DNA from: Candidatus Uhrbacteria bacterium
GTDB lineage: Bacteria > Patescibacteriota > Patescibacteriia > UBA9934
Direction of reading: 5' to 3'
Assembly (NCBI GenBank): GCA_943358395.1
Contig: CALRGY010000001.1
Location: 8,008-72,007, forward strand
Length of the DNA: 64,000 nucleotides
Shown: in pieces, positions 7,272-61,195 of the stretch
Layout of the letters: every line of letters begins with the position of its first letter
Numbering within the stretch: position 1 is the stretch's first letter
Position numbers and translations under genes: made by a program
Notes under the pieces: model-generated
Told to the model about the DNA's origin: nothing
Database searches by the model: none
Seen by the model: only the letters and a program-made list of their open reading frames with translations

Positions 7272-9184
7272 TGTTTCGCAAAAAACCACATGATCAGCGC
7301 GTATTCTTTCTCCACGATGACGGTACCATCGGGGATATTTCTCGTCATACCGATGACGCAACGTTCGACGATGCGTTGTCACAACGGTCATCGGATACGT
7401 TGTTTACTGGAACATTTGTGGGGAATTTTGCTGCACGGCGCATGCAATGGCTGGCGGGTGCGCTGGTACTTGTGCTGTTTGGAGGAGCGTTGTTTCGCAT
7501 TGGATATTGGCAGGTGATACACGGAGATACGTATCGCGCTATTGCAGACAATAACCGCACTCGCACAAAAACAATTATCCCGGATCGTGGCATTATTGCA
7601 GACAGAAACGGAGTAACACTTGCGTGGAATACTCCCGTCTTTCATGTGCTTGCGCATCGTGCTGACCTTCCAGAAGCAGGAGAAGATCGAAGAAGCTTGT
7701 TTCAAGCCATCGGTGAATCGCTCGGCATTGCATTCGAGGATTTTGAAACACGATACCAAAATTCTGGAACAGATCAAACAATCTTACTCGCTGAAACCGT
7801 TCCGTATGCTGCCGCACTTGCATTCGAGGCAGGTCATCAACCGTTTCCCGGAATCACCATGGAGCTTGCCTCAGCACGAACATACGCCACGAATGCAATG
7901 CCAACGCTTTCGCATGTATTGGGCTTTACGGGATCAATTCCAGAAACATCGTATGACGAGCTGAAATCATTAGGGTACCGCCGTTTTGACAGCATTGGTA
8001 AGCAGGGAACGGAGCAGCAATATGAATCATTGTTGCGGGGAACGCCTGGTGTGGAAATTACGGAGGTTGATTCGGAAGGAAGAGCATTGCGTACCCTGGA
8101 GAAAACAGACGTGATTCATGGCGAGAACCTTACGCTCACCATCGATGCAGGGCTCACGGCGGCTATTGAGGGCATCGTGGAACGTAAGCTCGCCAACGCA
8201 AAAGTAAAGAAGGCGGCCGTTGTGGTAAGTAATCCAAAAAATGGGGAAGTGCTCGCGGTGGTATCGTACCCAGCATACGACGTGAATCTCTTTGCTCGTG
8301 GCATTACGCAGGCAGAATATTCGGCGCTGCTTGCAGACCCGAATGCCCCACTTTTTCCACGAGCGACTCAAGGAGAATATCCATGCGGCTCCACCATGAA
8401 ACCAATCTACGCTGCTGCTGCACTCATCGAGCACATCATTACGCCGTCAACCAGCGTTCTTTCTACTGGTGGCATCTGGCTTGGGAATCGTCTTTTTCCG
8501 GATTGGCGCAGAAATGGCCATGGCTATACCAACGTGTATCACGCCATTGCGGATTCTGTGAACACGTTTTTTTACACCATCGGCGGGGGAACAGAGGCAT
8601 TTGAGGGGCTGGGGGTCGATCGTTTAATGCGTTATGCAAGTATGTTCGGCTTTGGGGCAACCAGCGGGCTTGGGTTCCCGAATGAAGCCGATGGCTTTCT
8701 TCCGTCGAAGGCATGGAAAGAGGCAACCAAAGGCGAGCCATGGTACGTCGGCGACACGTACAACGTTTCTATCGGCCAAGGCGACGTTCTCGTCACACCG
8801 CTCCAAATGAATCGTGCCACGGCAGTATTTGCAAACGGGGGAATGTTGATAACGCCGCATCTGCTGAAAGATACCCCTCAAGACGCAAAAAAGATTATTC
8901 CCGACGATGTCGCAGCAGTCATAAAAGATGCCATGCGCGAAACCGTCACAAACGGAAGCTCTGTTGCACTGAATACACTTTCGCAGCCGGTAGCAGGTAA
9001 AACAGGAACAGCGCAATGGGCAACAGGCAGAGATGAACACACTTGGTTCACCGGATTCGGTCCGTTCGATGACCCAACGCTCACCATTACCGTTGTGGTT
9101 GAAGAAGGCGGAGCAAATTATTATGCAACTCCGATAGCGGGAGAGATCTTTGAATGGTATTTCCAAAACCGTGACGTGAAATAA
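7268..9184 (+). CDS. mrdA: penicillin-binding protein 2 (elongasome transpeptidase)
   Basis: PBP dimerisation domain plus transpeptidase motifs STMKP, SVN and KTGTA; overlaps the mreD stop. Confidence 0.88.
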   Translation: MMFRKKPHDQRVFFLHDDGTIGDISRHTDDATFDDALSQRSSDTLFTGTFVGNFAARRMQWLAGALVLVLFGGALFRIGYWQVIHGDTYRAIADNNRTRTKTIIPDRGIIADRNGVTLAWNTPVFHVLAHRADLPEAGEDRRSLFQAIGESLGIAFEDFETRYQNSGTDQTILLAETVPYAAALAFEAGHQPFPGITMELASARTYATNAMPTLSHVLGFTGSIPETSYDELKSLGYRRFDSIGKQGTEQQYESLLRGTPGVEITEVDSEGRALRTLEKTDVIHGENLTLTIDAGLTAAIEGIVERKLANAKVKKAAVVVSNPKNGEVLAVVSYPAYDVNLFARGITQAEYSALLADPNAPLFPRATQGEYPCGSTMKPIYAAAALIEHIITPSTSVLSTGGIWLGNRLFPDWRRNGHGYTNVYHAIADSVNTFFYTIGGGTEAFEGLGVDRLMRYASMFGFGATSGLGFPNEADGFLPSKAWKEATKGEPWYVGDTYNVSIGQGDVLVTPLQMNRATAVFANGGMLITPHLLKDTPQDAKKIIPDDVAAVIKDAMRETVTNGSSVALNTLSQPVAGKTGTAQWATGRDEHTWFTGFGPFDDPTLTITVVVEEGGANYYATPIAGEIFEWYFQNRDVK

Positions 9185-9309
9185 TAGGACTGCAACATTT
9201 TCGACCAGTTTCGGTGCGCATCGAGCAAATTTCGTGAGACGTACTTCACGGTACGTTGAACGAATTTGCGATGATGCAAGCCGAAAATGGGCAAAATGCT
9301 GCAGTCCTA
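9185..9309. repeat. 125-bp palindromic dispersed element, copy 1
   Basis: Ends taggactgcaacatttt and aaaatgctgcagtccta; central cgtgagacgtacttcacggtacgttgaacg; starts immediately after the PBP2 stop codon. Confidence 0.85.
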
Positions 9310-14213: not shown

Positions 14214-15088
14214 AAAAACAACGTGATTTTCTTCGGCTATGGCATGCGAAAGAGCACGGAAACGGCATTCGAAAAAACCCCTTCTTTTTTAGAGCACCTC
14301 CTAAAAAGTGGCTTATCATCACCGGTATCGTTCTTGGTATAGTAGGGATCATCGGCGGCTGTATTGGCACAACCTATCTTTCATATTTTCGCATAACAGG
14401 AATAACCGTACAGGGCGCAACCATCACCCGCGCTGAAGATATTCAACAGAACGCATGGGAAACGATCACCACTCACTCGTACCCCTTTATTGCAAAAGAA
14501 AACGTCTTTCTCATCCGTGTCCAACGTATCGAACAGGAGCTCATGAAACGTTTTGCTCTTGAATCAGCGGTAGTGAGCCGTTCCGGGCGCACGTTGAATA
14601 TTGCTCTGGTTGAAAAAGTAACCACTCTTGCTCTTCGCACACAAGAAAAAACCGTGTTCCTTGATCTCTCCGGAACATATATTCGAGATGCTACTGCAGA
14701 AGAATCCCGAGCAATTGATGTTCGCATCGGCACAGCCGTTCCCACAGAAGGGGAAGTGATCGCACCATTACATGCCGAAATGCCAATCATTCTTGATACG
14801 CAAACAGATCCAGCCACATCGCTCCCCATACAAAGCGTCGAACACATTCTTGCGCTCACATCATCACTGCATAATCAGGGAATAACCGTAAAGACATATA
14901 CGCTAAACGGAGTGCATGCTCCTTTTGTTCGCCTTGATACCAATCAGCCGTACAGTCTCTTCTTTGACCTCAACCGCCCCGTCAATGAACAGATCAGCGC
15001 ACTGACCACCATCACTTCCTCACCATCCTTCATTCCTCCCGCAGAATACATCGATCTCCGCTTTGGAGCGTATGTGTATATGAAATAG
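14207..15088 (+). CDS. FtsQ/DivIB-like cell-division protein (POTRA domain)
   Basis: Short cytoplasmic N-terminus, single TM helix and a POTRA-like segment ITGITVQG...; follows alr. Confidence 0.45.
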   Translation: MLKKQRDFLRLWHAKEHGNGIRKNPFFFRAPPKKWLIITGIVLGIVGIIGGCIGTTYLSYFRITGITVQGATITRAEDIQQNAWETITTHSYPFIAKENVFLIRVQRIEQELMKRFALESAVVSRSGRTLNIALVEKVTTLALRTQEKTVFLDLSGTYIRDATAEESRAIDVRIGTAVPTEGEVIAPLHAEMPIILDTQTDPATSLPIQSVEHILALTSSLHNQGITVKTYTLNGVHAPFVRLDTNQPYSLFFDLNRPVNEQISALTTITSSPSFIPPAEYIDLRFGAYVYMK

Positions 15089-15210
15089 GACTTCCTCATT
15101 TTGTCTATTTTCGACTCAGATCATCGGAAAATCGTTCAACGTACCATAAAGTACGTCTCACGAATTTTCCTCGATCTTCATCGAAACTAGCCTAAAATGA
15201 GAAAGTCCTA
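15086..15210. repeat. 125-bp palindromic dispersed element, copy 2
   Basis: Its first three bases TAG are the stop codon of the FtsQ-like gene; its right end aaaatgagaaagtccta creates the apparent MRKSY start of the next ORF. Confidence 0.85.
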
Positions 15211-21116: not shown

Positions 21117-21243
21117 TGTCGGACTTCCCCATTTTGCCCATTTTCGGCTTGCATCATCGGAAACTTCTTCAACGTACCAAGAAGTACGTCTCAGAAGATT
21201 TCCTCGACGCGCACCGAAACTGGTCGAAAATGAGAAAGTCCTA
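21117..21243. repeat. 125-bp palindromic dispersed element, copy 3 (inverted orientation)
   Basis: Ends gtcggacttccccatttt and aaaatgagaaagtccta; internal gtacgtctca; produces the artefactual N-terminal extension of the clpB ORF. Confidence 0.85.
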
Positions 21244-30221: not shown

Positions 30222-30240
30222 TATATAACCTATCTTATCG

Positions 30241-30364
30241 AGGACTTTCTCATTTTAGGCTAGTTTCGATGAAGATCGAGGAAAATTCGTGAGACGTACT
30301 TCATGGTACGTTGAACGATTTTCCGATGATCTGAGTCGAAAATAGACAAAATGAGGAAGGACTA
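30241..30364. repeat. 125-bp palindromic dispersed element, copy 4
   Basis: aggactttctcatttt...cgtgagacgtacttcatggtacgttgaacg...aaaatgaggaaggacta. Confidence 0.85.
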
Positions 30365-39164: not shown

Positions 39165-39449
39165 GGCACTATATTACGCTCTTTTTTCTACAGATACAAC
39201 GTCTTTCCAACCCAAAAGTATTGATTTCTTGGCTAATATATGCTATTATTTCCGGTTCACTTTCTTCACCGTCGTATGACCAATCTCCAACCAAGCCTCG
39301 ATTATCGTATTGCCGCCGGTATAACCAAAATCCTCGTCGCACTGCTTTTAGCATTGAACATTGCCTCAGTAATCCCTGCCCGATAAGTGCCTGCCTGAAT
39401 CTGCCCTCATCGAATCACGATCCCGAATAAAGGATCGTGATTTTTTATG

Positions 39450-39574
39450 TAGGACTTTCTCATTTTAGGCTAGTTTCGATGAAGATCGAGGAAAATTCGT
39501 GAGACGTACTTCATGGTACGTTGAACGATTTTCTGATGATCTGAGTCGAAAATAGACAAAATGAGAACGTCCTA
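39450..39574. repeat. 125-bp palindromic dispersed element, copy 5
   Basis: Near-identical to copy 4; ends exactly at the stop codon of the DUF218 gene. Confidence 0.85.
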
Positions 39575-41360: not shown

Positions 41361-41630
41361 ATGAAGAGAAGAACACTTGGAATACTGTGTTTGGTAGTTC
41401 CTATTTCACTTATTGTTTGCACACTCTCACTATACGCAATCCTCAGCTTCATTCTTGCAAGCGTCATGGGTTCATCGGGTGAGGCTTCTTCCGCCACAGT
41501 TCTTTTTGGAGGAATTGTGAAAGCTATTCTTAGCGCACTCGGATTGATAGCAGTTTTCGGTATTCCGCTCGGCATTCCTATAGGAATATATCTTCTGTGC
41601 ACACCAGAAAAATTAAAGGGAACTAAATAG
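41361..41630 (+). CDS. small membrane protein (hypothetical)
   Basis: About 90 aa with two TM segments. Confidence 0.35.
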   Translation: MKRRTLGILCLVVPISLIVCTLSLYAILSFILASVMGSSGEASSATVLFGGIVKAILSALGLIAVFGIPLGIPIGIYLLCTPEKLKGTK

Positions 41631-41633
41631 AAT

Positions 41634-41758
41634 TAGGACTTTCTCATTTTAGACCAGTTTCGATGAAGATCGAGGAAATCGTCTGAGACGTACTTCATGG
41701 TACGTTGAAGACGTTTCCGATGATCTGAGTCGAAAATGGGCAAAATGAGGAAGTCCTA
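41634..41758. repeat. 125-bp palindromic dispersed element, copy 6
   Basis: taggactttctcattttagaccag...gagacgtacttcatggtacgttgaag...gaggaagtccta. Confidence 0.85.
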
Positions 41759-45284: not shown

Positions 45285-45384
45285 AAGGAGGTACTAATTA
45301 CGTTACGCAGTGATAAAAGACAAAATCATCTGAAACAACTTCAAGATGATTGTGAATGAGGCTCGAGATTCCGTCTCAGATGAG

Positions 45385-45509
45385 TTAAACGGTTCCAGTT
45401 TAGGCGAGTTTCGATGCGCATCGAGCAAAGCTTCCGAGACGTACTTCACGGTACGTTGAGGAAGTTTGCGATGATGCAAGTCGAAAATCAACAAACTGGG
45501 GCCGTTTAA
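45385..45509. repeat. 125-bp palindromic dispersed element, copy 7 (divergent termini)
   Basis: Termini ttaaacggttccagttt and aaactggggccgtttaa around the conserved centre cgagacgtacttcacggtacgttgagg. Confidence 0.8.
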
Positions 45510-47744: not shown

Positions 47745-48600
47745 TGATGGGATGGAAGGGAATCGGAGGAAAAGTGTGTGAAAGTGAAGGGAGTCTTTGG
47801 AGGGGGTTGGGAAGAAGTGAGTCTTGGAATGGGCTGTGAACGGGGAGTCGGAGGGGGTGGGGCTTGCGTTTTCAAAAGGGGCATCCTACTAATGCAACTG
47901 AGTTGCATGTAGGGGATGGGATAGCGATTGGGATTCGATGAGGATCGATTGTGTTTATCGAGAATGATCGAGATTCTGATGGAGACGGTCGATGTGATGT
48001 TTCATAGGTTTTTTTGCGTACCATCGATCGTGTTGATCGATTTTCACCATCGGAATCTGACCATATGCTTTGAAAAAAGAGTGCTCTCGCTAACGCGAAT
48101 GATTCGCGATAAGGAAACGGTCATCGATATTCGGTGCCCCGATGAGGTACGGCGACAAGGCGTAGAATCGACGATTCATGATCGTGAGCATTACAGTCGT
48201 CTTTCGCTGATTTCACTGTTACGCCGTGTTCAGATGGAAAGTTTTTCAACCCTCAAAAGCGAGGGCGCCTTCACAAAACGCGATACCCAAGCTGCCGAAT
48301 ATACCCGTCGATAGCACCTATCGCATCACGTTCGCTTCCTAATCTCAAACCCATTCCAAAGATTCCCATCACTTCACGATCCCTCACCCTCTCCAACTCC
48401 CCCTTCCCACTTCGCTCTTCGAGCTTCGAGGGACAAGTGGCAGGAGGAGGGTTCTCATCCAACTCTCACAACCCACCCCAAAGACTCACATCACTTCCCA
48501 TTTCACGTTCCCGTCACCACATTCCCAACACCCTCCAAAGACTCACCTCACTTCCCATTCCCAACCCCTTCAAAAGATCACTCTCACGTCCCCTCATCCC
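47745..48600. repeat. 0.9-kb composite element A: G-rich tandem-repeat arm / ~400-bp non-coding core / C-rich arm
   Basis: G-arm 47750-47930 carries repeated gtgagtctttggaggggttggg units; the core begins ctaatgcaactgagttgcat and contains gcgaatgattcgc; the C-arm 48330-48600 is the inverted complement of the G-arm motifs; homologous but inverted relative to 56022-56950. Confidence 0.75.
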
Positions 48601-51976: not shown

Positions 51977-51997
51977 AGTAAAGAAATGAAAATCGTC

Positions 51998-52122
51998 TAG
52001 AAACAGATTATTTTCGACCAGTTTCGGTGCGCATCGAGGAAATGTCGTGAGACGTACTTCATGGTACGTTGAACGACTTTCCGATGATGCAAGCCGAAAA
52101 TGGGCAAAATAATCCGTTTCTA
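51998..52122. repeat. 125-bp palindromic dispersed element, copy 8
   Basis: Termini tagaaacagattatttt and aaaataatccgtttcta; the terminal cta (52120-52122) is the stop codon of pduL on the minus strand. Confidence 0.85.
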
Positions 52123-53556: not shown

Positions 53557-53681
53557 TAGGACTTCCTCATTTTGTCTATTTTCGACTCAGATCATCGGAA
53601 AATTGTTCAACGTACCAGGTAGTACGTCTCACGAATTTTCCTCGATCTTCATCGAAACTAGCCTAAAATGAGAAAGTCCTA
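53557..53681. repeat. 125-bp palindromic dispersed element, copy 9
   Basis: Near-identical to copy 2; its terminal cta (53679-53681) is the stop codon of the TrmH-like gene. Confidence 0.85.
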
Positions 53682-54370: not shown

Positions 54371-54784
54371 TTACGCTGCCGTCACCATTTCAGACGGGAA
54401 TGACAATAATCCAAAATTCGACTGCAATACGTCGGAATTCTCCAATTTTTCTCGTTCGATTCGGGAGGGAGCGAAAAGCCCATTCGCAAGAATCACCGTG
54501 GAATATTCTATTGGAACGTTCAGGACAACCAACAATCCTTCGTTGATCATCCGAATAAAATCCTCTGCATTTTTGCCTTGAGTCGGAAATGTTAACGCAC
54601 CAGCCTCGACGTTTCCAACAATATATCCGTCATCTCGCCACCAAGAAACCTGAATATTCGAAGGAAGCTTTTGATAATACGCCACCAAAACCTCTGGAAT
54701 AATTTCCGGAGGCACTACCTTCGATCGAACATGTTTGAACCACGTTTGTATGCGTAAAACGGTTAAAAACATAAAATTCAGCAA
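54371..54784 (-). CDS. HicB-like (UPF0150) antitoxin candidate
   Basis: WWRDDGYIVGNVEAGALTFPTQGKNAEDFIRMINEGL matches the HicB N-terminal RNase-H-like fold; sits 2 nt upstream of the HicA-like ORF. Confidence 0.35.
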   Translation of the reverse strand: MLNFMFLTVLRIQTWFKHVRSKVVPPEIIPEVLVAYYQKLPSNIQVSWWRDDGYIVGNVEAGALTFPTQGKNAEDFIRMINEGLLVVLNVPIEYSTVILANGLFAPSRIEREKLENSDVLQSNFGLLSFPSEMVTAA

Positions 54785-54842
54785 TATATCTTATGTGAAC
54801 CATATCAAAAAAACCGCTTTTCGGCTATCCTCACTGCCATCT

Positions 54843-56021
54843 ATGAACACCCTTTGCCCAAAGCCTGATGTGTGCGGTTCGTGTGGTTGGAGCCATATTC
54901 CGTACGAAAAGCAGTTGCAGCAAAAGCTTTCAGACATTAATGGTTCATTTGCCATCAAAAAGCTTAAGCTCCACGTTGACGACATCTTCGCTTCCCCAAA
55001 AACGTCGCATTATCGCAATCGAATGGACTTTGTTATTAACTTCAAGGGCGAAATGGGGCTACGAGAAAAGGGAAAGTGGTGGAAGGTCATCGACGATCAT
55101 ACGTGCTTTTTGGGCGACGAAAAGATCGAAGCATTGTTCCCCATTGTTCGCGAATGGGTGCAGTCGTCTGGACTTTCATTCTTCGATCGGAAGTCCAACA
55201 TCGGTACCCTTCGCTACGCAGTGATTCGTTCAACAAGCATTGGCGAAACCATGATTATCATCGTCACCAGCGCGCCAAATGGTGAATCGCAAACTGGCGA
55301 GGGGAATGTTTCAATGATCGTAGAAACAAATGATGATACGGTGAAAATCGAGGCTGCACTCGCCGATCTTGCATCCAAGGCCAATACAACAACCCTTGTT
55401 TGGTCGATTAATCACACCATTTCCGACGTCTCCTTTGGTGATGATCTTCGCGTGATCAGTGGCGCAGGCGCGATCAACGAAATCATCGACGGAAAGAAAT
55501 TCCGTATTTCGCCCAACGCGTTCTTCCAAACAAATTCGTACGCTGCGCCGATGCTCCTCTCAACGGTACGCGAATTTGCTGGCGATCTTACGGGAAAAAC
55601 GCTTCTCGATTTGTACTGCGGCACCGGATTCTTTGCCGTGGCTCTTGCCGATGATGCCGCAAAAACCATCGGTGTCGAGCTCGTTCCTGATGCGATTCGC
55701 GACGCACGAGTCAATGCGGAGCTGAATGGAGGAGAGGTCACGTTCCATGACGCAAAGACGGAAAACTTCGACTGGATGGCGCTTGGTGCCGATGTCGTCA
55801 TTCTCGATCCCCCACGTTCCGGCATGCACGATAAAGCCCTTGCCGACGTCATTGCCGCAAAGCCCGCCCGTATTGTCTACATCTCCTGCAACTACAAAAA
55901 CTTCGCCCGCGAAATGGTAGAGCTTTCAAAATACTACACCGTCGAAGCCATCCGCGCCGTCGACATGTTCCCCCACACGCCACACGTGGAATTAGTAACG
56001 GCGTTGGTGTTGAAAAAGTGA
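54843..56021 (+). CDS. RlmD/TrmA-family (uracil-5)-RNA methyltransferase with N-terminal Fe-S Cys cluster
   Basis: CPKPDVCGSCGW...C cluster, FFQTN, SAM motif LDLYCGTGFFA and DPPRSG. Confidence 0.75.
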   Translation: MNTLCPKPDVCGSCGWSHIPYEKQLQQKLSDINGSFAIKKLKLHVDDIFASPKTSHYRNRMDFVINFKGEMGLREKGKWWKVIDDHTCFLGDEKIEALFPIVREWVQSSGLSFFDRKSNIGTLRYAVIRSTSIGETMIIIVTSAPNGESQTGEGNVSMIVETNDDTVKIEAALADLASKANTTTLVWSINHTISDVSFGDDLRVISGAGAINEIIDGKKFRISPNAFFQTNSYAAPMLLSTVREFAGDLTGKTLLDLYCGTGFFAVALADDAAKTIGVELVPDAIRDARVNAELNGGEVTFHDAKTENFDWMALGADVVILDPPRSGMHDKALADVIAAKPARIVYISCNYKNFAREMVELSKYYTVEAIRAVDMFPHTPHVELVTALVLKK

Positions 56022-56950
56022 CCTCTCCCCCATTTATGGGGGAGTCGGAGGGGGAGAGGGAAAGTGAAGTGAGTCTTTGGAGGGGTTAAGTGGTGACAGG
56101 AATCGGAGCAGCCAGATCCTGAGGCTCCGCCGAAGGACCCCGAACGAACCTACTCGTAAACAATTCGGGGCGTGAGGGATGGGAGTCTTGGAAGGGGTTG
56201 TGAGTCCGGACGTGAACCTGGACGTGAACTCTCCTCCATTTATGGGGGAGTTAGGAGGGGGCTGAATCGGAGGGGGTCTCATTTTGAAATGACACCCCCC
56301 CATTTTCGACCTTTTTCAACAGGACACTCTGCCGCGACGTGATCGTGAAATCGGCGAAAAGTGTCTTAAATGGGGACGCACGGAAATCATCAACGGCATA
56401 CGTCATCACTTACCCTGGATCGTTATCATCGGTATCGACCAACGGTTTCTTCTTGCGAATGATTCGCATTAGCAAGAAGCCTCTTTGGAAAACCACATAG
56501 TCAAATTCCGACCTCAAAAACTGATCACCTCAATCGGCTATACACAAAAGAATCAATAAAACATCACGTCGACTGTCTTCATCGGAATCCTCCTCACATA
56601 CGATGATAATAGTCCCTTCTCATCGAATCCCGATCATCATCCCGTCCTCTACATGCAACTCAGTTGCATTAGCAGGACCCCCCTTTTTAAATCGCAACCC
56701 CCTCTGGTTCAGATCCCTCCGATTCACAACCCTTTCAAAGACTCACCTCCCGAATCGTTTACCCGTCAGCTCATTTGAGGTCCTTCCCACTGCGCTAAAG
56801 CTTCGTGGGGACAGGTCGGCGTAGCCTCAGGATCTGGGACGCTCCGATTCCTGTTCTCCCTCCAACCCCATTCAAAGATCACCCTCCTCTCACCGCCTAC
56901 CCCCAACCCCTTCAAAGACTCCCCTCACTTTCGATTCTTCCGAGCCAGCG
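56022..56950. repeat. 0.9-kb composite element B (inverted copy of element A)
   Basis: G-arm 56022-56290; C-arm 56690-56950; the two arms are inverted repeats of each other (for example caggaatcggagcagccagatcctgaggctccgcc versus the reverse complement of ggcgtagcctcaggatctgggacgctccgattcctg); the core ends atgcaactcagttgcattag, the reverse complement of the start of core A; cores are roughly 70-80% identical in opposite orientation. Confidence 0.75.
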
Positions 56951-59585: not shown

Positions 59586-59711
59586 TAAAGGTTTTTTCAT
59601 TTTGTCTCTTTTCGGCTTGCTGCGTCGCAAATTCGTTCAACGTACCGTTAAGTACGTCTCACGAACTTTGCTCCTTGCGCACCGAAAATAGCCTAAAATG
59701 AGAAAACCTCA
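59586..59711. repeat. 125-bp palindromic dispersed element, copy 10
   Basis: aggttttttcattttgtctcttttcggcttgc...cgttcaacgtaccgttaagtacgtctcacg...aaaatgagaaaacctca. Confidence 0.8.
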
Positions 59712-59715
59712 CTTC

Positions 59716-60657
59716 TCATGTCACATCACCGAATAAGAATACCTCATTTCGTCGCCGTTCCACGATCCCTTCGTCCACAAGCTTCGCAATCAGTGTTGTA
59801 AAACGCTGTTCATCGATGTCGTTCATCGGCGATCGTGCGCGTAATGCCTTCAGTGTCATCGATCCTTCACGTAATGCGTCAACGATGCGTCCGCGGAAGT
59901 AGCGATCGGTGCGTTCAAAGGGAATCGGAACCCCCTCCTTACTCCCCCTTTGCAGGGGGAGGGTACGCAACTGTTTCGGTTCCCTTCCTCCATGAAGTGG
60001 GGCTAATGGGCATAGTCCCCAGATATGACCTCGCGCCGAGCAATGCAGTGCGCCGATATCCATGAGCGCATGGTTCCATGTCCATACATCGCTGGGTCGA
60101 ATCAATTGCGCCAATTGCTGCATCGATTTCGGGTCGGATTTGTGCCGAGGAAATACTCGGCGGAAGATTCTCAGAATATTCGTATCCACCGGTGCGGCAT
60201 TGGGATTATGAAACGCAAACGCCGCAATGGCATTCGCGGTGTAGTCACCGATTCCTGGGAGCTGCTTCATCGCATGAATATCATTAGGAAGTTCTCCTCC
60301 AAGCTCGATCACCGCCTTCGCAAGCCGATGCAGCATAACGGCACGACGGTTGTACCCCAGCCCTTGCCATAATCGGAGCACATCGGCAGTGGATGCTGCG
60401 GCGAGGTCTGCCCACGTTGGAAATGCAAGTAAAAACGCTCGCCACTTTGGAATAACGCGATCGACTTGCGTTTGCTGCAGCATCATTTCTGAAAGCGCAA
60501 TAGCATACGGATCCGTGGTTCTTCGCCACGGCAAATCTCGCTTGTGTGCCGCAAACCATTCAAAGACGATGACGTAAAACCGTTCAACGCGCCCATTTGT
60601 AGAACGCTTTGACGCTTTCACTTTCCGTGTTGAATTCGATGGGTTTCGGGTTTTCAT
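59716..60657 (-). CDS. MutY/Nth-family HhH-GPD DNA glycosylase with Fe-S loop
   Basis: HhH motif LPGIGDYTANAIAAFAF, the Fe-S ligand region HCSARGHIWGLCP and a C-terminal extension. Confidence 0.7.
   Translation of the reverse strand: MKTRNPSNSTRKVKASKRSTNGRVERFYVIVFEWFAAHKRDLPWRRTTDPYAIALSEMMLQQTQVDRVIPKWRAFLLAFPTWADLAAASTADVLRLWQGLGYNRRAVMLHRLAKAVIELGGELPNDIHAMKQLPGIGDYTANAIAAFAFHNPNAAPVDTNILRIFRRVFPRHKSDPKSMQQLAQLIRPSDVWTWNHALMDIGALHCSARGHIWGLCPLAPLHGGREPKQLRTLPLQRGSKEGVPIPFERTDRYFRGRIVDALREGSMTLKALRARSPMNDIDEQRFTTLIAKLVDEGIVERRRNEVFLFGDVT
59931..59968. repeat. 36-bp G/C palindromic motif, in-frame inside the MutY-like CDS
   Basis: ccccctccttactccccctttgcagggggagggtacgc; encodes LPLQRGSKEGVP on the minus strand. 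Confidence 0.7.
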
Positions 60658-61195
60658 ACGGCGGCAGTGTGTTAAAGCTCATCGAGGAACCCGCTTCGCA
60701 CTCCTCGACCCCCTCCGACTCCCCCTTGGCAGGGGGAGGGTTCACGACGGATACGGTCGATTCCATCGCAAGGACATCAACCCGGTACAACCATCCATAA
60801 TTCACTAAGGTCATAGTTCCTGCTGTGGTGAAGTGAAGATCGCGTACGTCGATGATGACGGAACCCTTTACAACGATTCGCCCGCCATACAACGCCAGCT
60901 CCTCCTTCCCCTCACGATCATTAATCACCACCAGGCTCGTGCCGTCGTCCATCCAAATCGTTGATGAACCAAACGCCACTTTCATCATCGATGAACACGA
61001 CAAAACATTCTGCCGCGAAACATCAACGCTTTCACATCCAAGATCGGTGGATGGTGCCGTCTGACTCACAATCGTAATCACAGATCGTGGACGATACCCA
61101 TCTCCCCCGGCAAAGCGCGCATCAAAATGCCTGCCAATCAACAGTGCCATCGAAAGCACAACAATCACACCGATGATCCATCGATTAGAGTTCAT
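60584..61195 (-). CDS. membrane-anchored hypothetical protein
   Basis: N-terminal TM anchor; 203 aa; its 3' region overlaps the MutY-like start by 74 bp. Confidence 0.35.
   Translation of the reverse strand: MNSNRWIIGVIVVLSMALLIGRHFDARFAGGDGYRPRSVITIVSQTAPSTDLGCESVDVSRQNVLSCSSMMKVAFGSSTIWMDDGTSLVVINDREGKEELALYGGRIVVKGSVIIDVRDLHFTTAGTMTLVNYGWLYRVDVLAMESTVSVVNPPPAKGESEGVEECEAGSSMSFNTLPPYENPKPIEFNTESESVKAFYKWAR
60709..60746. repeat. 36-bp G/C palindromic motif, second copy, in-frame inside the hypothetical CDS
   Basis: ccccctccgactcccccttggcagggggagggttcacg; encodes NPPPAKGESEGV on the minus strand, in the same phase as copy 1. Confidence 0.7.

What the first reader, a model, noticed from the sequence alone, without database searches (positions are those of the whole stretch)
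59931..60746. A 36-bp G/C-rich palindromic motif inserted in-frame, in the same phase and orientation, inside two neighbouring protein-coding genes
ccccctcc[t/g]-actccccctt[t/g]gcagggggagggt[a/t]c occurs at 59931-59968 (inside the MutY-like gene) and at 60709-60746 (inside the adjacent hypothetical gene). The core ctccccc-ttggca-gggggag is a perfect 7-bp-stem hairpin. In both genes it is read in the same phase and encodes P(L/P)(Q/A)(R/K)G(S/E)(K/S)EG within otherwise unrelated proteins. This is reminiscent of Rickettsia palindromic elements that insert in-frame into ORFs, but it could also be a recognition site (restriction-modification or recombination) or coincidence.
Basis: seen in the sequence. 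Interest (0 to 1): 0.5.

Follow-up and report, generated by a model that had tools for sequence, protein, structure and literature searches.

The report
Tiny palindromic repeat inserted inside genes
The two G/C-rich hairpins are copies of a roughly 31-base repeated DNA module, found in many bacterial phyla, that has landed in frame in flexible loops of two neighbouring genes of a Uhrbacteria-like (candidate phyla radiation) bacterium; such in-gene insertion is already known for other small palindromic repeats, but I could not find this module family described.

Summary
The motif is real. CTCCCCC-N6-GGGGGAG hairpins lie at 59942-59961 and 60719-60738, against 0 expected by chance. Each lies inside a minus-strand gene: an HhH-GPD/MutY-like glycosylase and a conserved hypothetical protein.

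One claim is wrong. The hairpin is read in different codon phases in the two genes (position 1 versus 2). Only the 3' tail shares a phase, because the linker differs by one base.

Each copy is one three-part module: pyrimidine arm, loop, purine arm, 2-3 nt linker, then GGAGGGGG. The window holds four full modules and two tail-only copies, all within 13 kb.

The same module occurs in more than 117 loci from Bacteroidota, Gallionellaceae, Planctomycetota, Chloroflexota and many candidate phyla radiation lineages. About two thirds of copies lie outside long ORFs. The rest sit in frame, in all six phases, in real housekeeping genes, notably UvrA, UvrB, UvrD, PolA and LigA.

Homologues show the MutY linker is ancestrally 16 aa. 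In this clade it has been expanded repeatedly by at least four kinds of palindromic insert. AlphaFold places both encoded peptides in low-confidence loops.

The best reading is a REP-like miniature repeat tolerated in linkers. It lacks the GTAG/CGTC tags of described REPs, and its tail mirrors the purine arm, which suggests a triplex fold.

The parts
59931..59961 (-). Module copy 1, in frame inside the MutY-like gene. Sense strand: CTCCCCC-TGCAAA-GGGGGAG-TAA-GGAGGGGG. It encodes L233-V243 (LPLQRGSKEGV).
   Evidence: AlphaFold pLDDT is below 50 at residues 229-239. The segment lies in a linker that is 16 aa in about 40 homologues.
59942..59961 (.). Hairpin core of copy 1: an 8-bp stem counting the T-A closing pair, with a 4-nt loop.
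   Evidence: -8.9 kcal/mol folded as DNA.
60709..60738 (-). Module copy 2, in frame inside the hypothetical gene. Sense strand: CTCCCCC-TGCCAA-GGGGGAG-TC-GGAGGGGG. It encodes P153-V163 (PPPAKGESEGV).
   Evidence: The protein carries 7-22 extra residues here compared with all 28 homologues. The peptide is a coil between two beta-strands, with mean pLDDT 68 for residues 151-160.
60719..60738 (.). Hairpin core of copy 2.
   Evidence: -10 kcal/mol.
56023..56054 (+). Module copy 3, non-coding: CTCTCCCCC-ATTTAT-GGGGGAG-TC-GGAGGGGG. It starts 2 nt after the stop codon of the tRNA(U5)-methyltransferase-like gene (54735-56021, + strand), in sense orientation.
   Evidence: The same ATTTAT-loop subfamily sits in the MutY linker of a related genome (L004/L127).
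56231..56261 (+). Module copy 4, degenerate and non-coding: CTCCTCC-ATTTAT-GGGGGAG-TTA-GGAGGGGG.
47841..47857 (+). Tail-only (mirror G-box) copy, CGGGGAGTCGGAGGGGG, in a non-coding repeat arm.
48387..48403 (-). Tail-only copy, GGGGGAGTTGGAGAGGG, in the opposite arm of the same non-coding segment.
59716..60657 (-). Host gene 1: HhH-GPD (MutY-like) DNA glycosylase, 313 aa.
60584..61195 (-). Host gene 2: conserved hypothetical protein, 203 aa, with an N-terminal helix followed by a beta-rich domain. It is found only in close Patescibacteria relatives.

Best explanation
Both motifs are copies of a very small (about 31-nt) REP-like repeated DNA module. The module has a C-rich arm, a variable loop, a G-rich arm that pairs with the first arm, a 2-3 nt linker, and a G-rich tail that is the mirror image of the G-rich arm.

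The module is a DNA-level element that spreads within genomes, mostly into intergenic DNA. Its arms and tail cannot encode stop codons, so copies that land in frame in dispensable inter-domain linkers or surface loops survive selection and are translated as short Pro/Gly-rich peptides.

In this Uhrbacteria-like genome one copy sits in the inter-domain linker of the MutY-like glycosylase, which is a recurrent insertion hotspot in this clade. A nearly identical copy sits 777 bp away in a beta-hairpin loop of the neighbouring gene. The second copy most likely arose by local copying.

Shown: repeat-family membership, insertion relative to homologues, selection on the hairpin, tolerance in loops, and no dependence on phase or orientation. 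Inferred: that the module moves as folded single-stranded DNA, in the manner of REP and IS200/IS605 elements, or by template switching at the hairpin. No mobilising enzyme was identified.
For: 1. Non-random family in the window. There are four full modules and two tail-only copies against 0 to 0.1 in shuffles. The four full modules span 4.7 kb of the 64 kb; by my own calculation the chance of this under uniform placement is about 0.0015.

2. Dispersed family elsewhere. Several genomes contribute multiple copies, and copies are often paired in inverted orientation. About 770 kb around MutY homologues from unrelated bacteria contained none.

3. The hairpin is under selection. The unconstrained loop-closing pair is T-A in 88 copies, C-G in 15, G-C in 9, A-T in 4 and T-G in 3, with only 5 non-pairs out of 124.

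4. Insertion in the MutY-like gene.
- The linker between CPLxxLHG and FxxTDR is 16 aa in about 40 homologues, including distant ones. It is 17-43 aa in the window's clade and carries at least four kinds of palindrome-derived peptide.
- DNA flanks are about 89-95% identical to the closest relatives, while the linker differs completely. L001 lacks the hairpin, and L003 carries a different module type.
- L004 and L006 carry further subtypes.

5. Insertion in the hypothetical gene. The protein has extra residues compared with all 28 homologues.

6. Tolerated positions. AlphaFold gives pLDDT below 50 at residues 229-239 of the MutY-like protein, and a coil between two strands in the hypothetical protein.

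7. A DNA-level element, not a peptide or RNA signal.
- The module is read in all six phase and orientation combinations.
- Inside long ORFs there are 22 sense and 19 antisense copies; downstream of genes there are 19 and 28.

8. Real host genes, with the module between domains. Hosts include UvrA, UvrB, UvrD, PolA, LigA, LepA, SecA, MetH, HisF-like and GltD-like proteins.

9. Precedent. [quoted passage not shown]

10. Local copying. Copies 1 and 2 are each other's closest relatives and share 13 of 20 nt upstream of the hairpin (p about 3.5e-4).
Against: - No transposase or RAYT-like gene recurs within 2.5 kb of 124 copies. None was sought genome-wide, because the full genome was not available.
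- No clean filled-versus-empty site pair was obtained, so insertion boundaries and target duplications are undefined. The target-duplication test was inconclusive.
- The defining GTAG/CGTC tags of described REP superfamilies are absent.
- REPs are normally species-specific (PMC6006769). This core sequence is shared across at least six phyla, which a simple selfish-repeat model does not explain.
- The hairpin energy is not significantly better than composition-matched shuffles (z = -1.4 to -2.4). The evidence for structure therefore rests on covariation rather than on energy.
- The copy number in the source genome is known only for this 64-kb window.
Confidence: 0.7

Rival explanations
1. The module is kept because it does something for the host at the nucleic-acid level. 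Candidates are a binding site for a conserved DNA- or RNA-binding protein, a replication or transcription pause site, or an mRNA-stabilising 3' hairpin. Under this reading the coding copies are by-products or add regulation, for example ribosome pausing at GGAGG.
For: - The core sequence, and not only the structure, is conserved across at least six phyla.
- Copy 3 starts 2 nt after a stop codon, in sense orientation.
- In one Uhrbacteria locus (L025) the tail GGAGG sits 8 nt before an ATG, like a Shine-Dalgarno sequence.
- REPs are reported to stabilise mRNA and affect translation (PMC6006769 background).
Against: - There is no orientation bias relative to transcription, inside or outside ORFs.
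- The closest MutY orthologue lacks the module.
- Modules at the same linker are replaced by different types.
- No T-run follows the hairpin, so it is not a classical intrinsic terminator (sequence).
- Rfam has no matching family.
Confidence: 0.15
2. The encoded Pro/Gly-rich peptide is itself a selected protein module, such as a flexible linker or an interaction motif, and the DNA palindrome is incidental.
For: - Both peptides lie in linkers or loops where Pro/Gly-rich sequence is plausible.
- The ...EGV ending is shared.
Against: - The hairpin is read in different phases in the two genes, and in all six phases across the family, giving unrelated peptides.
- Identical DNA modules occur in non-coding DNA.
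- The loop-closing bases covary at the DNA level.
- The 92%-identical orthologue lacks the peptide.
Confidence: 0.03
3. The two copies arose without a mobile element. The hairpin in the MutY linker is old, and the second copy was made by a one-off local event such as ectopic gene conversion or replication template switching between neighbouring genes. Resemblance to sequences in other phyla is convergence of simple G/C-run palindromes.
For: - The copies are 777 bp apart, share 13 of 20 nt of upstream flank and are each other's closest relatives.
- All modules in the window cluster within 13 kb.
- Low-complexity G/C runs can arise repeatedly.
Against: - The same three-part architecture, with the conserved flanks CT...G(T) and the mirror tail, recurs in more than 117 loci, whereas about 0.4 would be expected for uniform random sequence (my calculation).
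- The same loop subfamilies (ATTTAT, TGCCAA) occur at unrelated loci in different genomes.
- Different module types occupy the same MutY linker in close orthologues.
- Local copying may well be how copy 2 arose, but that is compatible with the main explanation.
Confidence: 0.1
4. Chance, or an assembly or sequencing artefact.
For: None beyond the low sequence complexity of G/C runs.
Against: - No matches occurred in 100 shuffles.
- Identical in-gene modules were recovered in independent assemblies from different samples (L004, L005 and L127).
- The reading frames remain intact.
Confidence: 0.01

Closest known systems
Intragenic REPs of the GTAG- and CGTC-tagged superfamilies (Di Nocera, De Gregorio & Rocco 2013, BMC Genomics 14:522; PMC3733652)
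   Same: - Both are 20-40 bp G/C-rich stem-loops present in many copies.
- Both are mostly intergenic and often occur as inverted dimers.
- In both, a minority of copies lies in frame inside real genes, in flexible linkers, and is strikingly often in replication and excision-repair genes (uvrA, uvrB, uvrD, polA, ligase). The same host-gene bias is seen here.
   Different: - There is no GTAG or CGTC tag at either end (at most 3 of 120 flanks).
- The unpaired conserved part is a 10-nt G-rich tail that mirrors the 3' arm.
- The core sequence is shared across at least six phyla, whereas REPs are described as species-specific.
- Neither this family nor a MutY host appears in that paper's supplementary files.
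- No RAYT association was shown.
Rickettsia palindromic elements (RPE; Ogata et al. 2000, recalled from my own knowledge; RPE-4 and RPE-6 are equated with CGTC REPs in PMC3733652)
   Same: Both are palindromic repeats inserted in frame in protein-coding genes, translated, and tolerated at surface or linker positions.
   Different: RPE-1 is about 100-150 bp and A/T-richer, and is restricted to Rickettsia. The present module is about 31 nt, is built from G/C runs, and is found in many phyla, including candidate phyla radiation bacteria.
REPIN/RAYT system and IS200/IS605 subterminal hairpins (Y1 HUH transposases acting on folded single-stranded DNA; PMC6006769, PMC5581495)
   Same: Read on the C-rich strand, the module is a conserved unpaired 5' 'foot' (CCCCCTCC-AA/GA) followed by a hairpin, which is the layout those enzymes recognise. 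Inverted doublets are seen in other genomes. The TC-linker variants give a CCGA foot, which resembles the 'CnGA' foot reported for class 3 Y1 genes.
   Different: No Y1, RAYT or TnpA gene was found next to any of 124 copies. The foot is 10 nt, not 4. No cleavage site was defined. The link is an analogy, not a tested association.
Intramolecular purine-motif (R*R.Y) triplex / H-DNA-forming mirror repeats (established nucleic-acid chemistry; recalled from my own knowledge)
   Same: The order pyrimidine arm, loop, purine arm, short linker, mirror-image purine tract is exactly the design of a foldback 'paperclip' triplex. The position of the single A in the tail changes with its position in the arm in a mirror-symmetric way in at least five arm variants that my search pattern did not impose.
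   Different: No physical evidence exists, and the tools here cannot model triplexes. Known H-DNA elements are long homopurine tracts in duplex DNA, not dispersed 31-nt repeats.
Very small dispersed repeats of cyanobacteria (SDRs; Elhai et al. 2008, recalled from my own knowledge) and bacterial MITEs inserted in genes (e.g. Coxiella, PMC5896051)
   Same: These are sub-40-bp or miniature non-autonomous repeats that can sit within genes without breaking the frame.
   Different: The sequences and architectures differ. MITEs have terminal inverted repeats plus target-site duplications and are usually longer than 50 bp. Here the target-duplication test was inconclusive.

Membership tests
REP (repetitive extragenic palindrome), GTAG/CGTC-tagged superfamilies | Short (20-40 bp) G/C-rich stem-loop unit | tested here: met
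   The module is 30-33 nt with an 8-bp stem and a 4-nt loop. The loop-closing pair covaries: 119 of 124 copies are paired, using 4 Watson-Crick pair types.
REP (repetitive extragenic palindrome), GTAG/CGTC-tagged superfamilies | Unpaired terminal tag fitting GTAG or CGTC at one end | tested here: not met
   GTAG/CTAC or CGTC/GACG occurs in the 8-nt flanks of at most 3 of 120 copies on either side. The conserved flanks are CT upstream and G(T) downstream.
REP (repetitive extragenic palindrome), GTAG/CGTC-tagged superfamilies | Many dispersed copies per genome, mainly intergenic | tested here: inconclusive
   The 64-kb window holds 4 full and 2 partial copies, clustered. Other genomes contribute several loci each. 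About two thirds of the 124 copies lie outside long ORFs. The source genome as a whole was not available.
REP (repetitive extragenic palindrome), GTAG/CGTC-tagged superfamilies | Frequent inverted dimers (BIME/REPIN-like) | tested here: inconclusive
   Inverted partners within about 20-50 nt are common in Gallionellaceae, Gemmatales and Andersenbacteria loci. They are not seen in the window, where copies 3 and 4 are direct repeats 208 nt apart.
REP (repetitive extragenic palindrome), GTAG/CGTC-tagged superfamilies | Cognate RAYT (Y1 transposase) gene flanked by the repeats | tested here: inconclusive
   No protein family recurs within 2.5 kb of the 124 copies. A single-copy RAYT elsewhere in each genome could not be sought.
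REP (repetitive extragenic palindrome), GTAG/CGTC-tagged superfamilies | Intragenic copies in frame, enriched in replication and repair genes | tested here: met
   Hosts include UvrA (twice), UvrB, UvrD, PolA, LigA, a PD-(D/E)XK nuclease and MutY-like genes, among about 27 Pfam-supported hosts. Compare PMC3733652.
Rickettsia palindromic elements (RPE) | Repeat unit of about 100-150 bp, restricted to Rickettsia | tested here: not met
   The unit is about 31 nt. The host is a Uhrbacteria-like candidate phyla radiation bacterium, and the family spans at least six phyla.
Rickettsia palindromic elements (RPE) | In-frame insertion into ORFs at tolerated positions | tested here: met
MITE | Terminal inverted repeats plus target-site duplication; length usually over 50 bp | tested here: inconclusive
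   The hairpin arms could serve as 7-8 bp terminal inverted repeats. Flanking direct repeats of 4-5 nt occur in 22 of 120 copies against 6 of 120 in the control, without a consistent length. The unit is shorter than 35 nt.
Intrinsic (Rho-independent) terminator | G/C-rich hairpin followed directly by a T-run | tested here: not met
   The hairpin is followed by T(C/T/AA)GGAGGGGG, not by a T-run.
Intramolecular R*R.Y triplex-forming sequence | Purine tract followed by its mirror image, plus a complementary pyrimidine tract, joined by short loops | tested here: met
   The sequence rule holds in all four window modules. It also holds in unconstrained variants elsewhere: 64 perfect mirror tails against 10 direct copies, and 49 against 3 for arms other than GGGGGAG.
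Intramolecular R*R.Y triplex-forming sequence | Physical formation of base triples | not testable with these tools
   ViennaRNA models only secondary structure. This needs CD or UV melting, or chemical probing.

The most novel reading that the evidence does not exclude
The module is a previously undescribed, cross-phylum class of miniature mobile DNA. Its conserved design (pyrimidine arm, loop, purine arm, short linker, mirror-image purine tail) folds single-stranded DNA into a self-contained hairpin-plus-third-strand triplex. This structure, rather than a sequence tag, would drive its copying, either through recognition by an unidentified single-strand-DNA enzyme or through polymerase stalling and template switching. 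Its over-representation inside the nucleotide-excision-repair pathway genes (uvrA, uvrB, uvrD, polA, ligA) and the MutY-like gene would then reflect an interaction between the element and the repair machinery that processes such structures, not merely tolerant linkers.
Probability: 0.2. Interest if true: 0.8.

Novelty: new variant of a known kind. Interest (0 to 1): 0.55.

Why it matters
- **Wider host range.** In-frame insertion of tiny palindromic repeats into essential genes is not a curiosity of Rickettsia or a few Proteobacteria. It also happens in candidate phyla radiation bacteria with very small genomes.
- **Unusual conservation.** One module family with a conserved core is shared by Bacteroidota, Proteobacteria, Planctomycetota, Chloroflexota and Patescibacteria. 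REPs are normally species-specific.
- **Annotation.** Recurring Pro/Gly-rich peptides such as LPLTKGE(S/L)EGV, SPPxxGGVGGG, PLQLPLQRGR and TPSNSPxxGG in metagenomic proteins are repeat-derived insertions. They are not functional motifs or signs of homology.
- **Independent support for an odd bias.** An unrelated repeat family reproduces the reported bias of intragenic REPs toward excision-repair genes.
- **A testable structural lead.** The mirror-tail rule gives a concrete hypothesis, an intramolecular triplex, for what these repeats are recognised by or how they spread.

Tried and rejected
1. **Neighbouring genes.** I clustered all ORFs of at least 80 aa within 2.5 kb of the 124 copies, looking for an associated transposase or RAYT. 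No neighbour family recurred; the only clusters were host genes that contain the module.

2. **Literature.** Full-text searches for the motif, the encoded peptides, and REP with Patescibacteria found nothing specific. The supplements of the two REP survey papers contain no matching sequence.

3. **Rfam.** Searches at the gathering threshold and at E<=1 found only a tRNA.

4. **Recovering the source contig.** Looking up P0001 and P0121 to obtain the rest of the 109-kb contig failed; neither is on record. No genome-wide census of this organism was therefore possible.

5. **Metagenome scan with the MutY alignment.** This was meant to collect many related Uhrbacteria loci. Only two close relatives came back (L127, L128); the rest were distant and module-free, and served as a negative control.

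6. **Viral contigs.** There were only 3 hits among 2.9 million contigs, so the module is not phage-borne as a rule.

7. **Covariance model.** I did not build one, because MAFFT shifted the 5' arm between sequences with different loop lengths (A5). I used fuzzy pattern scans with shuffle controls instead.

8. **Hairpin energy z-scores.** They are not significant, because shuffled C-run/G-run sequences also fold. I relied on covariation instead.

9. **Target-site duplication.** The test was inconclusive.

10. **The two ~900-bp segments.** I considered whether the homologous non-coding segments at 47745-48583 and 56022-56940 encode a mobilising protein. They have no conserved ORF.

11. **Restriction site.** A GAGTC (PleI/MlyI-type) site is rejected as a general feature, because most family members have GAGTT.
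Full report
**1. Observation**

The sequence is as described. CTCCCCCTTTGCAGGGGGAG lies at 59942-59961 and CTCCCCCTTGGCAGGGGGAG at 60719-60738. These are the only matches in the 64-kb window even with three mismatches allowed, and 100 dinucleotide-preserving shuffles gave none.

Each sequence is a perfect hairpin with an 8-bp stem (counting the closing T-A pair) and a 4-nt loop. Folded as DNA the energy is -8.9 to -10 kcal/mol.

Both lie inside minus-strand ORFs:
- 59716-60657: 313 aa, Pfam HhH-GPD E=2e-17, 'MutY-like'.
- 60584-61195: 203 aa, no Pfam family.

The best-named homologues are from Candidatus Uhrbacteria / Patescibacteria.

In gene sense the copies read as follows:
- Copy 1: ACC-CTCCCCC-TGCAAA-GGGGGAG-TAA-GGAGGGGG-TT
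- Copy 2: ACC-CTCCCCC-TGCCAA-GGGGGAG-TC-GGAGGGGG-TC

The one-base difference in the linker puts the hairpin at codon position 1 in the MutY-like gene and position 2 in the hypothetical gene. Only the tail is in the same phase. The encoded peptides are LPLQRGSKEGV (residues 233-243) and PPPAKGESEGV (residues 153-163).

**2. The unit and its copies in the window**

The repeated unit has three parts: a pyrimidine arm, a loop and the pairing purine arm, then a 2-3 nt linker and the G-box GGAGGGGG. A relaxed scan finds four full modules:

| Position | Strand | Context |
|---|---|---|
| 56023-56054 | + | non-coding, starts 2 nt after the stop of a tRNA(U5)-methyltransferase-like gene |
| 56231-56261 | + | non-coding, degenerate |
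| 59931-59961 | - | in the MutY-like gene |
| 60709-60738 | - | in the hypothetical gene |

There are also two tail-only copies, at 47841-47857 and 48387-48403. Shuffles gave 0 to 0.1. All copies lie in the last 17 kb of the window. The four full modules span 4.7 kb; by my own calculation the chance of this under uniform placement is about 0.0015.

**3. Are the coding copies insertions?**

*MutY-like gene.*
- The segment between the conserved CPLxxLHG and FxxTDR(Y/F)(F/Y)RG motifs is exactly 16 aa in about 40 homologues. This includes distant ones that keep the four-cysteine Fe-S loop.
- In the window's clade the segment is 17-43 aa and carries palindrome-derived peptides of at least four kinds:
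  - This module type: window, P0009, P0011, P0015.
  - An ATTTAT-loop version: P0007, P0023.
  - A 'type B' version with arms and tail swapped, PPPYEGGG(R/K)GEV: P0003, P0005, P0033, P0036, P0059.
  - An unrelated palindrome giving GSHASLSHPERSEGSP.
  - Apparent decay products as well.
- At the DNA level the closest relatives (L001, 92% aa; L003) are about 89-95% identical in the flanks but completely different in the linker. L001 keeps only ...AACCCTCCCCAGCGAG..., with no hairpin. L003 carries the type B module.
- L004, L005 and L127, which are independent assemblies, and L006 carry further subtypes at the same place.
- The linker is therefore a recurrent insertion or turnover hotspot, not an ancestral peptide.

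*Hypothetical gene.* The window protein has 7-22 extra residues at the module position compared with all 28 homologues.

*Predicted structure.* AlphaFold models built from these alignments are confident overall (mean pLDDT 87 and 84).
- The MutY-like peptide falls in the only internal segment with pLDDT below 50 (residues 229-239). It lies between the catalytic and C-terminal domains.
- The other peptide is a coil between two beta-strands.

**4. The family outside this genome**

| Group | Loci |
|---|---|
| Bacteroidota | 28 |
| Gallionellaceae and other Betaproteobacteria | 28 |
| Patescibacteria (Uhr-, Andersen-, Buchanan-, Vogel-, Specht-, Peri-, Gracilibacteria) | 23 |
| Planctomycetota | 14 |
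| Chloroflexota, Myxococcota/Deltaproteobacteria, Nitrospirae and others | remainder |

For uniform random sequence I estimate about 0.4 hits. About 770 kb around MutY homologues of unrelated bacteria contained none, and 2.9 million viral contigs gave 3 hits.

Positions that the search pattern did not fix are still conserved or covary:
- CT precedes the arm in 90 of 124 copies.
- G(T) follows the tail.
- The linker is TT in 88 copies and TC in 28.
- The first and last loop bases pair in 119 of 124 copies, using four Watson-Crick pair types: T-A 88, C-G 15, G-C 9, A-T 4.

Lineage-specific loop subfamilies exist, such as TTTGTA in Paludibacteraceae and TGAYAA in Gallionellaceae. Many copies have an inverted partner nearby.

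**5. Coding versus non-coding, phase and orientation**

- By a crude ORF criterion, 33-40% of copies lie deep inside long open frames, against 71% of random positions.
- The in-ORF copies are read in all six phase and orientation combinations, which gives unrelated peptide series.
- Orientation is unbiased both inside ORFs (22 sense, 19 antisense) and downstream of genes (19 and 28).
- Pfam confirms that the hosts are real genes, with the module between or at the edge of domains:
  - Repair and replication: UvrA (L071, L096), UvrB (L116), UvrD (L102), PolA (L073), LigA (L039), a PD-(D/E)XK nuclease (L037).
  - Other: LepA, SecA, MetH, HisF-like, GltD-like (L056, L100), serine dehydratase.
  - In the Uhrbacteria-like L128, the tRNA methyltransferase orthologue itself.
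- Roughly a quarter of the supported hosts are excision-repair or replication genes.

**6. Comparison with what is known**

Di Nocera et al. (PMC3733652) catalogued REPs and found copies inside genes in several species. [quoted passage not shown] They also equated some Rickettsia RPEs with CGTC-tagged REPs.

The module is nevertheless not a member of the described superfamilies:
- GTAG/CGTC tags are absent.
- Those papers' supplements contain no such sequence.
- REPs are described as species-specific (PMC6006769), unlike this cross-phylum core.
- No recurrent neighbouring gene, and hence no RAYT, was found near the 124 copies. A single-copy gene elsewhere in each genome could not be tested.

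**7. An unexpected regularity**

The tail is the mirror image, not the complement and not a direct copy, of the purine arm. This holds for the window modules (GGGGGAG ... GAGGGGG).

It also holds for hairpins with other arms that my pattern did not impose:
- GGGGAGG followed by GGAGGGG
- GGAGGGG followed by GGGGAGG
- GGGGGGA followed by AGGGGGG
- GAGGGGG followed by GGGGGAG
- GGAGGGA followed by AGGGAGG

Overall there are 64 perfect mirror tails against 10 direct copies. For arms other than GGGGGAG the count is 49 against 3. Copies within a lineage are not independent, so the conservative evidence is that about six arm variants all obey the rule.

A pyrimidine tract, its purine complement and a mirror-image purine tract joined by short loops make up the textbook design of an intramolecular purine-motif triplex. 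This is my inference from established nucleic-acid chemistry, and nothing here tests it physically.

**8. Mechanism, with status**

*Shown:*
- The motifs are copies of a dispersed repeat family.
- The hairpin is under selection.
- The coding copies are insertions in dispensable loops.
- Phase and orientation do not matter, so the unit acts at the DNA level.
- The MutY linker has been hit or remodelled repeatedly.

*Inferred:*
- Copies persist in genes because the G/C arms and tail cannot encode stops. Modules are open in 5.1 of 6 frames, against 4.5 for random windows of the same length. Only in-frame insertions in linkers survive.
- Copy 2 arose by local copying from copy 1, or the reverse. 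They share 13 of 20 nt of upstream flank, p about 3.5e-4.
- Spread involves folded single-stranded DNA, either through an HUH/Y1-type enzyme as for REPs or through template switching at the structure.

*Unknown:* the mobilising activity, the exact element ends, and why the core is conserved across phyla.

**9. Verdict**

The feature is real, and its basic nature is explained: an in-frame insertion of a REP-like miniature palindromic repeat, which is a known kind of event.

The particular family appears undescribed in the literature I could search. What sets it apart is the untagged C5/G5 hairpin with a mirror tail, its presence in at least six phyla including candidate phyla radiation bacteria, and its recurrent targeting of the MutY-like linker. 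That is why I rate it a new variant of a known kind, of moderate interest.

Noticed in passing
window 9180-9309, 15086-15210, 21119-21243, 30235-30364, 39445-39574, 41629-41758, 45380-45509, 51993-52122, 53557-53681, 59587-59711: A second, unrelated repeat family of about 120 nt has at least 10 copies in 64 kb, some 96-98% identical, and they fill whole intergenic gaps. Each copy is a long imperfect palindrome with the terminal inverted repeats TAGGACTTCCTCATTTT...AAAATGAGAAAGTCCTA and an invariant centre TTCAACGTACC-N4-AGTACGTCTC. Arm variants look compensatory (GGAAAATCG/CGAATTTTCC versus GCAAATTCG/CGAAATTTGC). There is no Rfam match. It could be a MITE or a structured RNA. One copy lies directly downstream of the MutY-like gene.
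   Followed up: partly
window 47745-48583 and 56022-56940: Two homologous non-coding segments of about 900 bp (about 73% identity) lie in opposite orientations. Each has a G-rich repeat arm on one side and a C-rich arm on the other. The arms are built from units such as GTGAGTCTTTGGAGGGGTTGG, which resemble the module tail. Both segments share the conserved hairpin CTAATGCAACTGAGTTGCATGTAG. They have no conserved ORF, no Rfam hit, and no exact match to the hairpin in viral contigs. Module copies 3 and 4 and both tail-only copies lie in these arms.
   Followed up: partly
window 59716-60657 (protein residues about 206-222) and alignment A1: The MutY-like proteins of this Uhrbacteria clade keep only two of the four cysteines of the Fe-S cluster loop (CSARGHIWGLCPLAPLHG). 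More distant homologues keep C-x6-C-x2-C-x5-C. The C-terminal domain is not matched by a Pfam MutY/NUDIX-type model. The enzyme may therefore be an Fe-S-free HhH-GPD glycosylase rather than a true MutY.
   Followed up: no
MutY-like linkers of P0014, P0017, P0021, P0030 (and shorter forms in P0012, P0018, P0038, P0045): A different insert occupies the same 16-aa linker in other orthologues and encodes (R)GSHASLSHPERSEGSP. It looks like another palindromic repeat family. Similar DNA words (cttcgctcttcgagcttcgaggg) occur in the window's non-coding segment near 48405-48440.
   Followed up: no
L128 6767-8029 (minus strand): In a related Uhrbacteria-like contig, the orthologue of the window's tRNA(U5)-methyltransferase-like gene carries an in-frame doublet of modules (…TPSSSPLVRGRDSGSVAFPLLTKEGLGEV…). 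In the window the same gene instead has a module 2 nt after its stop codon.
   Followed up: partly
L051 1394-6358: In a Bacteroidales MAG a single stop-free frame of 1655 codons spans an AcrB-type transporter domain and an outer-membrane efflux (OEP) domain. The module sits at the junction, near residue 1057. This could be a repeat-mediated gene fusion or the loss of a stop codon.
   Followed up: no
L049 2575-2626 (Butyricimonas synergistica DSM 23225): Here the module occurs as a complete long palindrome, CCCCTCCAACTCCCCC-loop-GGGGGAGTTGGAGGGG, with both outer arms present. It therefore matches the search pattern on both strands. This may be the full-length form of the element.
   Followed up: no
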